NCBI GenBank assembly: GCA_041649025.1
Contig: JBAZNY010000002.1
Span: 70,694 to 134,693 of the forward strand
DNA length: 64,000 nucleotides
Reading direction: 5' to 3'
DNA from: Bdellovibrionales bacterium
GTDB taxonomy: Bacteria; Pseudomonadota; Alphaproteobacteria; UBA9219
Shown here: piece by piece, positions 54,001-57,000 of the stretch
How positions within the stretch are numbered: the stretch's first letter is position 1
How the letters are laid out: every line of letters starts with the position of its first letter
Program-made: the position numbers

Positions 54001-57000
54001 TTATCACTCTGCCAAGTCGCGCCGCAACAGAGCCGATTAGTTCCAAAGGACGGAAACGGAAGTATATGTATCTTATTGAAAAGAATGTTCTTTTAAGTCA
54101 TTTGTCGATCCTTTAAAAAATTACTTCATAAAAAACTTCTTTAAAAATAGGTGGCGCGCGCCCCCTTCTTGCGGGTGATAATCGCAAGCCGGCAGCTGAC
54201 TACCATTCCAGTCCTTCTCCGTTTTTTTCCCACATCTGCTAGCCGAGTGGGCACGAAGTCAAACCGGATGCACCTTTCTTAAGGGTGCAAAGCCAATATA
54301 ATACAGGTCAAACGGAATGTCAAGGGATGTATCACATTAAATAAGGATATTTCTGTTAACCAACGAAGGGGTTGAAAGGATGTGATGTTTCCTTTGTATG
54401 GGAGGGGACGAAGGTGTTGAGGTGGGGAATGCAGCGTTATTGCAATGGTCGTTGTCCTTTTGCCGCGCGGACGCGCGGCGCTGGATTCCCGCTTTCGCGG
54501 GAACGACGAAGAAGATAAGGCGCGTTCAGGAATGACGAAAAAAAGAAAACAAATGGGGTCCCCGCCTTCCGGCTTCGCTAAGGCTACGCCGGACAAGTCG
54601 CGGGGATGACGAAGAAGAAAGAAAACAAAATCGGATTCCGCATAAATTCGCATTTTGCGATTTGCAAAAAGCGAATTTTGCGGAATGACAAAAGTAAGAT
54701 TACTCTTTCAGAGAGGCTTTGAGTTCTTCGAGTTCCAGCCAACGCTCTTCGGCAGCGTGGAGCGACTCCAGCGCCTTGCCAAAGTCGCGCGTAAGCTTGT
54801 CAAACAACTCGGCGTCGCGCGTGTAAAGACCGTGGTCGGTAAGTTGGTCTTCGAGATACGCGATTTCTTTTTCGAGCGCCTTAATTTTTGCCGGTAGCTT
54901 TTCAAGCTCGTGCTGTTGGGTGAAGGACAGCTTTCCTTTATCTGAGGGCTTTCTTGCGGAACGCCCCCCTCCCTGACCCTCCCCGCGAGGGGGAGGGAAA
55001 TTGTTTATGTTTTCATCTGTTGTTCTATCATTGCCATCTGATTTTCCCCGCGAGGGGGAGGGGATTTCTTTCTTATCTTTCGCCTTCTGCTTGGTTGCAG
55101 GTTGGGGTTTTTCTTTGCCTTTGCGCTTGGCGAGATAGTCCTGATAGCCGCCGATGACGGCTTCGATTTTGCCGTCGCCTTCAAACGCCAAAACCTTCGT
55201 CACCGTCTGGTCGAGAAAGTCGCGGTCATGGCTGACGACAAGCAATGTCCCTTTGTATGCCGCCAGCATGTCTTCCAACCTGTCGAGCGTGTCCATATCG
55301 AGATCGTTCGTCGGCTCGTCGAGAATGAGGAGGCTTTGGGGATTGGCCATGATCTTGGCCAACATCAGGCGGTTTTTCTGCCCGCCCGACAGGGCGCTGA
55401 CGGGATGATGAACCATCTTCGGGTCAAACAGAAAATCTTTCAGATAGCCGCAGACGTGGCGCGTTTTACCCATCACATCGACGTAATCGCTGCCGTTCGG
55501 GCACAAGACGCGCTGCATCGTATGATGCGGGACAAGGTCTTTGCGCTTTTGGTCGAAGTACGAGAATTGCAAATCCTTCGCGACCTTCACCTTGCCCATA
55601 GAGGGCTTTAATTCGCCCACCAGCATGCGTAAAAAGCTTGTTTTGCCGCTTCCGTTCTTGCCGATGACGCCGATGCGGTCGCCGCGCAGAATGCGCAAAT
55701 TAAATTTATCGAGGATGATTTTTTCGCGCCCGCCTTCGTTAAACGATAGATGCACGTTGTGGAAATCGGCGGCGATTTTCGAGGAGGCTTCAGCCACTTC
55801 GCCCGGCGTGTACTCGATTTTCGCCAGCATGCGGGAGAGCGCGTTTTTGTCGGCGCGGAGCTTGTCGCGTTCCGCCTTCATCAGTTCGACACGGCGGACG
55901 TTGCGCTTGCGGCGCGCTTTGACTCCCCTACTCGCCCATTCGACTTCGTAATCCAAAACTTTCTGGCGGTTGTGAAGCTCGCGCTCTTCCTGCTCCAGAA
56001 TCATCGTCGCCCATTCATCGAAGAACGAGAACCCGCGCGGACAAACTCTTAACTTGCCGCGATCGAGCCAGAAAATTTCTTCCGATACATTGGCGAGAAA
56101 AGTTTTGTCGTGGCTGATGCACATGACAGCGCCGATATAGGATTTTAAATAGGTTTCAAGCCATTCGATAACGTCGAGATCAAGGTGGTTCGTCGGCTCG
56201 TCGAGCAGCAGAACGTCGGGTTCCTCCACCAGCGCCCGCGCCAACGCGGCGCGGCGCAATTGCCCGCCAGATAAATTCGTCATTTGATCTTCGAGATGGA
56301 GCTCCAGAGGTTCGACGACGCGTTCGATCTTGTAGTCGTGGCTGCCGTCCTGATTGTTAAGCGCGGCAAAGATAAACTCGTGGACCGTCTGGCCGGGTAT
56401 GGGCACGACTTCCTGTTGCAGGTAGCCGATGGTTGAGCCTTGCAGTTGCCAGCGCGTGCCTGCGTCAAGTTCTCGTTCGCCCTTGATGATGTTCATCAAG
56501 GTGGTTTTGCCCGCGCCGTTCTGACCGATGAGGCAGACTTTTTCGCCCTGTCGGATGTTGAACGTCAGGCCGTCAAACAGCGTTTTGTCGCCGAACTGAA
56601 TGACGCCGTCCTGAACGGTAAGGAGAAGGGTTGAGGCCATGGAGGAACAATCCTTTTTAGGAAAAGCATTCACCCAAGCGATTTCGGACAAATGAGCGCT
56701 TACTTATGATAGAGCCGCCTCTGCTTCTTTCATGGAAATCATAAGGAGCCACGAGTTAATCGGAGACTCGCGAAATCCGGACTGTTCATAGAAATGCTTG
56801 GCTCTGTGGGAAAGGGCGCGCACGAAGATTCCCCTTATGCCAACAATGGCTGCAGCTTCTGTCGTTCGCCAAACGGCGTCCCGAAGAAGCGCTCGTCCTA
56901 GTCCTTGGCGTTGATGCTCTTGATCGACAGCAAGGCGTCCAAACAACATCATCGGAATCGGATCAGGCATATTGCGTTTTATGTTTTTGTAAGCTTCGTT

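What the first reader, a model, noticed from the sequence alone, without database searches (positions are those of the whole stretch)
54964..55063. RPE-like palindromic element inserted in-frame (twice) into the Uup ABC-F protein
The GC-rich hairpin element CCCTCCC(T)GACCC(C)TCCCGCGAGGGG(G)AGGG occurs intergenically at 12116-12240. It occurs again, as two copies about 50 bp apart, inside the 3' part of the uup ORF. There it is read through in-frame as FPPPRGEGQGGGR and EIPSPSRG, between the second ABC cassette and the C-terminal coiled coil. This is the behaviour described for Rickettsia palindromic elements (RPEs): selfish hairpin repeats that insert into ORFs while preserving the frame and add surface loops. 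I do not recognise this particular element family.
Basis: partly seen in the sequence, partly recalled or inferred. Interest (0 to 1): 0.62.

Follow-up and report, generated by a model that had tools for sequence, protein, structure and literature searches.

The report
Triplex-type DNA repeat inside uup gene
A small GC-rich repeat of the kind known in E. coli as BoxC (a "triple-helix motif") sits in frame inside the flexible linker of the Uup protein of an uncultured Micavibrio-like bacterium, adding 34 amino acids; this is a new example of a known habit of selfish repeats, not a new kind of system.

Summary
Window 54966-54997 holds an intact copy and 55038-55066 a degenerate copy of the repeat that also forms an inverted pair at 12116-12241. 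Shuffled sequence gives no such matches. Both uup copies are read through in frame, in two different frames. They lie in a 34-codon excess over all 119 closest Uup homologues. That excess falls in the linker between the second ABC domain and the C-terminal coiled coil, which AlphaFold2 models with pLDDT below 50.

The element is more than a hairpin. It has three arms: a C-arm, a loop, a G-arm, a TCA/TTA loop, and a mirror-image G-arm. This is the architecture of E. coli BoxC, also called PIT elements or TM_ECO (Holder et al. 2015). It is about 82% identical to E. coli copies but has 8-nt rather than 9-nt arms. Its 20-nt core occurs in more than 117 loci across many phyla. In Schlesneria and in one alphaproteobacterial assembly it sits in frame inside MetH, PSD1-domain proteins, an ECF-sigma/kinase protein, an epimerase and a UbiG-like methyltransferase. 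Three other Uup lineages carry a different palindromic repeat in frame in the same linker.

How it moves is unknown. I score it as a new member of a known kind, of moderate interest.

The parts
54700..56640 (-). uup gene (ABC-F family). This is the 646-aa product P0001 from the ATG at 56640; the mechanical ORF runs on to a TTG at 56691.
   Evidence: Pfam finds ABC_tran twice plus ABC_tran_CTD at residues 570-639. The best solved relative is Uup 9nlj_U at 2e-111. The identical gene is present in ENA contig L001.
54949..55050 (-). Lineage-specific 102-nt (34-codon) excess in the Uup linker, RGKSDGNDRTTDENINNFPPPRGEGQGGGRSARK (P0001 residues 531-564). The boundaries depend on the alignment, by a few codons either way. 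Repeat-derived DNA spans about 54946-55066.
   Evidence: Protein alignments A1 and A3 and DNA alignment A2. AlphaFold2 gives pLDDT below 50 and no secondary structure for residues 511-568.
54966..54997 (-). Intact three-arm (triplex-type) repeat, copy B, written on the uup sense strand: CCCTCCCC / CTCGC / GGGGAGGG / TCA / GGGAGGGG. It is also a G-quadruplex-type motif at 54964-54984. It is translated as FPPPRGEGQGGG.
   Evidence: The 8-bp hairpin is predicted. This strand has no stop codon in any frame.
54946..54965 (-). Flank of copy B (+ strand GGGCTTTCTTGCGGAACGCC, translated RSARK). It resembles the flank CTTGCGGAACTCCC seen next to copies in other alphaproteobacterial assemblies, so it probably belongs to the inserted unit.
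   Evidence: Anchored comparison of 24 copies. Conservation is weak (consensus C..g..Ga.CtCCC), so this is an inference.
55038..55066 (-). Degenerate copy C, in direct orientation to B. The C-arm, loop 1 (TCGC), 4 nt of the first G-arm and the TCA loop are kept; both G-arms are mutated. It is translated EIPSPSRGKSD in a different frame from B.
   Evidence: Similarity to copy B beyond the 34-nt stretch is not significant: 230 of 1000 shuffles score as well.
12116..12241 (.). Intergenic inverted pair of the same element: copy D at 12119-12150 with the G-rich strand on +, and copy A at 12207-12238 with the G-rich strand on -. It lies between divergent genes 11180-12022(-) and 12316-12864(+).
   Evidence: As single-stranded DNA the pair folds into one long hairpin, -39 kcal/mol, z = -5 against shuffles.

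Best explanation
A copy of a dispersed, non-coding, GC-rich repeat entered the part of uup that encodes the unstructured linker between the second ATPase domain and the C-terminal coiled coil. It arrived either as a tandem pair or was later duplicated.

The repeat belongs to the class described in E. coli as BoxC, PIT elements or TM_ECO. Its layout is a C-arm, a 4-5 nt loop, a G-arm, a 3-nt TCA/TTA loop, and a second G-arm that mirrors the first. Such a sequence can form a hairpin, an intrastrand purine triplex or a G-quadruplex.

The insertion survived for three reasons:
- The net length is a multiple of three.
- The G-rich strand, which is the sense strand here, has no stop codon in any frame.
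- It translates to a Pro/Gly/Arg/Ser/Asn-rich flexible peptide in a segment that already tolerates any length from 32 to 69 residues.

It is most likely a neutral passenger. One copy has already lost its two G-arms.

Shown: family membership, lineage-specific presence, in-frame read-through, a linker predicted to be disordered, and recurrence of the habit in other genes and other Uup lineages.

Inferred: that the segment arrived by copying from another copy (the machinery is unknown), and that it is neutral for Uup.
For: - The element is real and repeated.
- The three-arm rule (G2 mirrors G1; the C-arm complements G1) is met perfectly by copies B, D and A, against 0 hits in 100 shuffles.
- Copy D is about 82% identical over 42-48 nt to unannotated sites in 4737 of 5426 E. 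coli genomes, median 8 sites per genome. One example lies in the cca-bacA spacer and matches the published TM_ECO pattern.
- The published description of the class is in PMC4666352.
- The 34-codon excess is absent from all 119 homologues.
- There is no three-arm motif in 22 kb of the syntenic locus of a 77%-identical relative.
- AlphaFold2 gives pLDDT below 50 for residues 511-568.
- The sense strand of the element is open in all three frames.
- The same core sits in frame in genes confirmed by Pfam. In Schlesneria it splits the MetH activation domain and a PSD1 domain, lies in a second PSD1-family protein, in an ECF-sigma/kinase protein and in an epimerase. In an alphaproteobacterial assembly it splits a UbiG-like methyltransferase.
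- The next three longest Uup linkers carry in-frame copies of another palindromic repeat: VIPAKAGIQ in P0097, SFPRKRESS in P0081, and a decayed form in P0098.
Against: - No closely related empty site was found; the nearest homologue is 82% identical. Insertion boundaries, any target-site duplication, and one event versus two cannot be read.
- No mobility gene was linked to the element here, and none is known for BoxC (PMC4666352).
- Only 64 kb of the source genome could be examined, so the copy number and the intragenic fraction in this organism are unknown.
- Neutrality is assumed, not tested.
- Single copies do not fold better than shuffles of the same composition.
Confidence: 0.8

Rival explanations
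1. The insert has been co-opted. Either the extra 34 residues tune the reach of the DNA- or ribosome-binding C-terminal domain, or the stable hairpin and G-quadruplex in the mRNA pause ribosomes between domains. On this reading it is kept by selection.
For: The reading frame has been kept although one copy has decayed. The sense-strand RNA has an 8-bp GC hairpin followed by four G-tracts. Several Uup lineages independently carry repeat-derived linker extensions.
Against: Only one of 120 homologues has this insert. Linker length and sequence vary freely. Copy C has lost the structure-forming arms. The RNA fold is no better than shuffles, z = -1.7 and -0.25. The other lineages use an unrelated repeat, which points to tolerance rather than a specific function.
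Confidence: 0.08
2. The element is a REP/REPIN moved by a REP-associated tyrosine transposase (RAYT) encoded elsewhere in the genome. The uup copy would then be a RAYT-mediated insertion.
For: The core is a short GC-rich imperfect palindrome. The intergenic site is an inverted doublet that folds into one long hairpin, as a REPIN does. Inverted doublets about 90 nt apart are common among the related loci.
Against: There is no GTAG or CGTC tag next to copies B, C and D; copy A has one CGTC nearby. The uup pair is direct, not inverted. E. coli BoxC has never been linked to a transposase (PMC4666352). No RAYT gene was sought or seen in the window.
Confidence: 0.1
3. The segment arose on the spot. 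The low-complexity G/C-rich linker DNA expanded by slippage and resembles the repeat by convergence.
For: The motif is compositionally simple, being runs of C broken by T. The linker varies in length among homologues. Triplex motifs are linked with local instability (PMC4666352).
Against: The 31-nt core of copy B differs from that of copy D at three positions, all in the two loops. The 20-nt core is exact in more than 117 unrelated loci, and 99 of 125 copies there have the complete three-arm layout. Even the flank resembles that of other copies. The relatives' linkers are Lys/Ala/Pro-rich and have no such DNA.
Confidence: 0.03
4. It is an assembly artefact: a repeat-induced chimera or collapse in a metagenome-assembled genome.
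For: The source is a metagenome-assembled genome, and repeats are classic chimera points.
Against: The frame is preserved through 102 nt. Both flanks continue the same conserved gene. The identical gene sequence is present in an ENA contig of a different length, 123 kb against the 186-kb longest contig on record, although I could not show that the read sets are independent.
Confidence: 0.03

Closest known systems
E. coli BoxC, also called potential intrastrand triplex (PIT) elements or TM_ECO (Bachellier et al. 1990s; Hoyne/Maher 2000; Holder et al. 2015, PMC4666352)
   Same: - Same three-block order: C-arm, loop of 3-6 nt, G-arm, 3-nt loop (TTA in type A), mirror G-arm.
- About 82% identity to E. 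coli copies over 42-48 nt.
- Dispersed and multi-copy.
- Some copies form inverted pairs.
- No mobility gene is known.
   Different: - The arms are 8 nt (GGGGAGGG) rather than 9 nt (GGGNGAGGG), so the published pattern does not match.
- Here and in Schlesneria the copies lie inside genes and are translated, whereas in E. coli K-12 all 23 copies are intergenic.
- The core found here spans many phyla, while TM_ECO was reported in 262 proteobacterial genomes.
Rickettsia palindromic elements (RPEs; Ogata et al. 2000 and 2002, as summarised in PMC10969869)
   Same: A repeat able to form a palindromic hairpin is inserted in frame into unrelated housekeeping genes without destroying them, adding a peptide at a structurally permissive place.
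   Different: RPEs are about 100-150 bp, specific to Rickettsia, and each family encodes a conserved peptide (PMC10969869). That they are AT-rich is from my own knowledge. Here the core is about 32-58 nt, very GC-rich, three-armed, read in different frames in the two copies, and found across phyla. No sequence relationship is claimed or was tested.
REP/REPIN elements with RAYT transposases (Nunvar 2010; Bertels and Rainey 2011, PMC3116915; Di Nocera 2013, PMC3733652)
   Same: Short GC-rich imperfect palindromes. Inverted doublets that fold into a long hairpin (12116-12241). Many copies per genome.
   Different: There is no consistent GTAG or CGTC tag. A third, mirror arm is present. No RAYT was identified. 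REPs are by definition extragenic.
Intragenic MITEs (ERIC, Coxiella QMITE1, Anabaena MITEs; reviewed in PMC10969869)
   Same: Small non-autonomous repeats that sometimes form in-frame fusions with host ORFs.
   Different: No terminal inverted repeats or target-site duplication could be defined here, and the unit is shorter than typical MITEs.

Membership tests
BoxC / PIT / TM-type intrastrand triplex repeats | Three consecutive blocks: C-rich arm, loop of 3-6 nt, G-rich arm complementary to the C-arm, loop of about 3 nt, then a second G-rich arm that mirrors the first | tested here: met
   Copies B, D and A satisfy the rule with 8-nt arms; 0 hits in 100 shuffles. 99 of 125 related copies in other genomes do too.
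BoxC / PIT / TM-type intrastrand triplex repeats | Match to the published TM_ECO pattern CCCTCNCCC N3-6 GGGNGAGGG N3 GGGNGAGGG (9-nt arms) | tested here: not met
   The regular expression finds the E. coli control (L242) but nothing in the window; the arms here are GGGGAGGG. The element is therefore a relative or variant, not TM_ECO in the strict sense.
BoxC / PIT / TM-type intrastrand triplex repeats | Sequence similarity to E. coli copies | tested here: met
   blastn of 12108-12165: 4737 of 5426 E. coli genomes hit, median 8 places per genome, about 82% identity over 42-48 nt, none under an annotated feature in the rows shown. The E-values are weak (0.03-1) because the query is short.
BoxC / PIT / TM-type intrastrand triplex repeats | Exclusively intergenic location (as in E. 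coli K-12) | tested here: not met
   Copies B and C lie inside uup and are translated. This is the point of difference. The copies at 12116-12241 are intergenic.
BoxC / PIT / TM-type intrastrand triplex repeats | Formation of a purine-motif triplex by the G-rich strand | not testable with these tools
   This needs CD or NMR spectroscopy or in vivo footprinting, as done for TM_ECO (PMC4666352). The folding tools used here model only Watson-Crick hairpins.
Rickettsia palindromic elements (RPE) | In-frame insertion into unrelated protein-coding genes, leaving the gene intact | tested here: met
   uup; MetH, PSD1 proteins, an ECF-sigma/kinase protein and an epimerase; a UbiG-like methyltransferase.
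Rickettsia palindromic elements (RPE) | Element of about 100-150 bp with a conserved encoded peptide for each family, confined to Rickettsia | tested here: not met
   The core is 32 nt, or about 58 nt with the flank. The two uup copies are read in different frames and give different peptides. The core occurs in many phyla. Sequence comparison with RPEs was not done.
REP / REPIN-RAYT | Conserved GTAG or CGTC tetranucleotide at one end of the palindrome | tested here: not met
   Absent next to copies B, C and D; one CGTC lies near copy A.
REP / REPIN-RAYT | Inverted doublets forming a long hairpin | tested here: met
   12112-12245 folds at -39 kcal/mol, z = -5. The uup pair, however, is direct.
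REP / REPIN-RAYT | A cognate single-copy RAYT (Y1 transposase) gene in the genome, flanked by the repeats | not tested
   Only 64 kb of the genome was available, and the window ORFs were not screened for Y1 transposases.
MITE | Terminal inverted repeats and a target-site duplication | tested here: inconclusive
   The nearest empty site is only 82% identical at the protein level, so the linker DNA cannot be aligned well enough. Short direct repeats flank some related copies (for example CTTGCGGC in L216) but not consistently.

The most novel reading that the evidence does not exclude
BoxC-type three-arm (triplex/G-quadruplex) repeats may be a cross-phylum class of mobile DNA that routinely colonises coding sequence. 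Examples seen here are Uup, MetH, a UbiG-like methyltransferase and planctomycete PSD1 proteins. On this reading they seed Pro/Gly/Arg/Glu-rich disordered loops in proteins. Copies embedded in conserved genes would also provide exact filled-site and empty-site pairs, from which the still unknown way these 'orphan' repeats spread could be worked out.
Probability: 0.3. Interest if true: 0.6.

Novelty: new member of a known kind. Interest (0 to 1): 0.4.

Why it matters
BoxC/PIT triplex motifs have been described as strictly intergenic repeats of unknown origin and with no known means of spread. Translated copies inside conserved genes show two things. Sequences able to form triplex or G-quadruplex structures are tolerated on the sense strand of essential-type genes. 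And, like RPEs in Rickettsia, they can lengthen protein linkers.

Genes give a fixed frame of reference for finding insertion boundaries, which is what is needed to learn how these repeats move.

There is also a practical lesson. Pro/Gly/Arg/Glu-rich odd segments such as PRGEGQGGG, PLPNPPRRGEG, VIPAKAGIQ and FPRKRESS in proteins predicted from metagenome-assembled genomes are repeat DNA read through, not protein motifs.

Tried and rejected
- Full-text search for strings of the element's sequence found only unrelated eukaryotic papers.
- Rfam at gathering thresholds found nothing at either locus, only two tRNAs and Alpha_RBS elsewhere.
- The G-quadruplex heptamer repeats of Xanthomonas and Nostoc (PMC4692102) are tandem GGGNATC repeats, not this element.
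- I tested whether copy C is a full-length decayed unit. Similarity to copy B upstream of the 34-nt stretch is not significant, with 230 of 1000 shuffles scoring as well, so I did not claim it.
- A screen for ORFs reading through the element gave 50 copies with at least 100 open codons on both sides. Several of those I read by eye looked like wrong-frame ORFs of GC-rich DNA or like copies in 5' leaders (L131 murB; L007, L029 and L105 phage genes); these were not checked with Pfam. Only the cases confirmed by Pfam are counted.
- A Pro-rich prophage ORF with 2-3 in-frame copies (L036) has no PHROG match and is left unverified.
- I tried to get a clean empty site and target-site duplication from Schlesneria MetH. 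The loop is itself hypervariable and the nearest relatives are 82-84% identical, so no boundary could be read.
- I did not use the metagenome scan.
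Full report
**Observation**

The window holds four copies of one GC-rich element.
- Copy B, 54964-55000: CCCCCCTCCCTGACCCTCCCCGCGAGGGGGAGGGAAAT.
- Copy C, 55038-55066, partial: CTGATTTTCCCCGCGAGGGGGAGGGGATTT.
- Copy D, 12116-12157, on the other strand: CCCCCCTCCCTAACCCTCCCCGCAGGGGGGAGGGGAAG.
- Copy A, 12203-12241: CCCCCTCCCCTGACCCCTCCCGCGAGGGGAGGGGAA.

The 21-nt hairpin core matches three times at up to 3 mismatches, against none in 100 shuffles. 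B and C are direct repeats, 34 nt at 82% identity and 65 nt apart. D and A are inverted and lie between two divergent genes.

The ORF 54700-56691(-) reads through both B and C, in two different frames. B gives FPPPRGEGQGGGR at 54961-54999 and C gives EIPSPSRG at 55045-55068. Two refinements apply: the second uup copy is degenerate, and the intergenic site is an inverted pair.

**The gene and the source**

The product is identical to P0001, labelled 'MAG: Bdellovibrionales bacterium' at NCBI. It has two ABC_tran domains and the ABC_tran_CTD coiled coil at residues 570-639. Its best solved relative is 'Uup' (9nlj_U, 2e-111). Its closest homologues are labelled Alphaproteobacteria. NCBI taxonomy files Micavibrio under Bdellovibrionales, and a Micavibrio assembly carries the same element (L181). 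The source is therefore probably a Micavibrio-like alphaproteobacterium; this is an inference. The same gene sequence is present in an ENA contig.

**Is the segment an insertion?**

In an alignment of the 24 closest homologues, P0001 alone has the 34 residues RGKSDGNDRTTDENINNFPPPRGEGQGGGRSARK. These are P0001 residues 531-564, or window 54949-55050. The DNA alignment with the 82%- and 77%-identical relatives shows one 102-nt gap.

Among 120 homologues the linker has a median of 38 residues, and P0001 has the longest at 69. AlphaFold2, run with this alignment, gives pLDDT below 50 and no secondary structure for residues 511-568. That stretch lies between the last helix of ABC2 (499-510) and the coiled coil (573-645).

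A 22-kb syntenic stretch from the 77% relative has no copy of the element at all. The exact boundaries cannot be fixed, because the linker DNA of the nearest relative is too diverged. Repeat-derived DNA spans about 54946-55066.

**What the element is**

It is more than a hairpin. On the G-rich strand it reads TT-CCCTCCCC-CTCGC-GGGGAGGG-TCA-GGGAGGGG. That is a C-arm, a loop, a G-arm complementary to the C-arm, a 3-nt loop, and a second G-arm that is the mirror image of the first. Copies B, D and A meet this rule exactly, and 100 shuffles gave none. The same strand is a four-tract G-quadruplex motif.

This is the layout published for E. coli BoxC, also called 'potential intrastrand triplex' elements or TM_ECO: 5'-CCCTCNCCC N3-6 GGGNGAGGG N3 GGGNGAGGG. 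In that family the second loop is often TTA. There are 23 copies in K-12, all intergenic, five of them in inverted pairs. No transposase is linked to them. A purine triplex was demonstrated in vitro, and the sites are associated with local genomic instability (PMC4666352).

Copy D finds unannotated sites in 4737 of 5426 complete E. coli genomes, with a median of 8 sites per genome, at about 82% identity over 42-48 nt. One such site, in the cca-bacA spacer, reads CCCCTCGCCCCTTCGGGGAGAGGGTTAGGGTGAGGGGAAC and matches the published pattern. The window copies do not match it, because their arms are 8 nt rather than 9 nt. The element is thus a relative of BoxC/TM_ECO, not TM_ECO in the strict sense.

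**Distribution**

The hits include:
- Planctomycetota, with many copies in Schlesneria
- Abditibacterium
- heterocystous cyanobacteria
- Gastranaerophilales
- many Alphaproteobacteria (Devosia, Dongia, Stellaceae, Micavibrio-like assemblies)
- Chloroflexota, Polyangia, Omnitrophota and a Doudnabacteria assembly

Of 125 copies, 99 have the full three-arm layout. The core is the same everywhere but the flanks are lineage-specific. A looser hairpin pattern found more than 120 viral or prophage contigs, often as inverted doublets about 90 nt apart.

**Is in-frame residence a habit of the family?**

I screened all copies in the fetched loci for ORFs that read through them and checked the best candidates against Pfam.

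In Schlesneria assemblies the element sits in frame in:
- the activation domain of methionine synthase, where Met_synt_B12 is split into two stretches
- two PSCyt/PSD1 proteins, with PSD1 split by the element in one of them (L197)
- an ECF-sigma/Ser-Thr kinase protein, in which the copies lie between the two domains as I read the Pfam coordinates
- an NAD-dependent epimerase

In an alphaproteobacterial assembly the element splits a UbiG-like methyltransferase. Several further candidates that I read by eye looked like wrong-frame ORFs of GC-rich DNA or like copies in 5' leaders; they were not checked with Pfam and are not counted.

Independently, the next three longest Uup linkers (P0097, P0081 and P0098) contain VIPAKAGIQ...TPAFAGVTP, SFPRKRESS and a decayed version. 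These are translations of a different palindromic repeat, GGATTCCCGC-TTTC-GCGGGAA. That repeat also occurs just downstream of uup in this window, at 54483-54506, and again at 62769-62795. The Uup linker is therefore a recurrent landing place for palindromic repeats.

**Mechanism**

The best reading is a passenger insertion. The sense strand of the element has no stop codon in any of the three frames, whereas the opposite strand has TGA in one frame. The excess is 34 whole codons. The peptide is rich in Gly, Pro, Arg, Ser and Asn and lies in a segment predicted to be disordered.

Copy C has lost both G-arms and with them the triplex, G-quadruplex and most of the hairpin potential. That fits decay, or selection against structure inside a gene.

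Several things are not shown. How the copy arrived is unknown, and no mobility gene is known for this class. It is also unknown whether B and C came in one event or two. Similarity between the two units outside the 34-nt core is not significant. However, a 'full copy plus partial copy in direct orientation' arrangement is also seen at an intergenic site in another 'Bdellovibrionales' assembly (L203). Finally, whether the insert affects Uup was not tested. Single copies do not fold better than shuffles of the same composition. Only the intergenic inverted pair does, with z = -5.

**Comparison and verdict**

The element works like an RPE, in that it is inserted in frame and tolerated. It fails the RPE definition on size, peptide conservation and host range. 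It resembles a REP/REPIN in forming inverted doublets, but it lacks the GTAG/CGTC tag and no RAYT transposase is known for it. Its family is the BoxC/PIT/TM type.

In the literature I could search, that class is described only as intergenic, and I found no report of translated copies. In-frame insertion of small repeats is itself well known (PMC10969869). I therefore rate this a new member of a known kind, of moderate interest. Its main value is as a handle on how these orphan repeats spread, and as a warning about repeat-derived 'motifs' in predicted proteins.

Noticed in passing
window 54460-54510 and 62747-62797: A second palindromic repeat family, TTGCCGCGCGGACGCGCGGCGCTGGATTCCCGCTTTCGCGGGAAYGACGA. 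Read in frame it gives FPRKRESS or VIPAKAGIQ. There are two copies in the window, one of them about 200 nt downstream of uup.
   Followed up: partly
proteins P0097, P0081 and P0098 (Uup homologues; alignment A3): Three other Uup lineages carry in-frame copies of that second repeat (VIPAKAGIQ...TPAFAGVTP; SFPRKRESS; TTAKAGIS..IPASAGITP) in the same linker. After P0001 they have the longest linkers among the 120 homologues.
   Followed up: partly
window 54632-54690 and 62640-62697: A third repeated hairpin, GGATTCCGnATAAATTCGCATTTTGC-n-GCAAAAAGCGAATTTTnCGGAATGAC, with 15-16 nt arms that are 93-94% complementary. Like the second family it ends in GGAATGAC.
   Followed up: no
window 53176-54699 compared with L004 11839-11845: In the 77%-identical relative, uup abuts smc tail to tail. 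Here about 1.5 kb lies between them: a 266-aa ORF (53176-53976, minus strand) plus a repeat-rich non-coding stretch.
   Followed up: no
window about 56704-57475 (minus strand; L001 9166-9937): A TacA-like antitoxin (PF08681) plus GNAT acetyltransferase pair lies immediately upstream of uup. In the relative L004 the RNase E gene directly precedes uup.
   Followed up: no
L185 1513-1602; L159; L197; L142; L235 (Schlesneria assemblies): Inverted doublets of the same three-arm core are translated inside MetH, two PSD1/DUF1553 proteins, an ECF-sigma/kinase protein and an epimerase. They give recurring peptides such as SPSPRRGGPGRG and PLPNPPRRGEGT. The MetH loop is hypervariable among relatives, and other inserts occupy the same spot.
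   Followed up: partly
L203 1495-1610: An intergenic full copy is followed 28 nt later by a partial copy (CCCGCGAGGGGGAGG) in direct orientation. This is the same arrangement as in uup.
   Followed up: partly
whole window / P0001 label: The source is labelled 'Bdellovibrionales bacterium', yet its Uup relatives are alphaproteobacterial. NCBI taxonomy still files Micavibrio under Bdellovibrionales, which probably explains the label.
   Followed up: partly
window 45784-45806 (minus strand): An isolated G-quadruplex-type motif, GGGTGGGGCATTCAGGGGAGGGG, lies about 220 nt from the Alpha_RBS element (45458-45562). It does not have the three-arm layout.
   Followed up: no
window 12009-12040: A separate GC-rich hairpin followed by a run of T (GCCCTCTCCTGcccaaCAGGAGAGGGCTTTGTT) sits next to the intergenic repeat pair and overlaps the 5' end of the mechanical ORF 11180-12022(-). 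It looks like a terminator.
   Followed up: no
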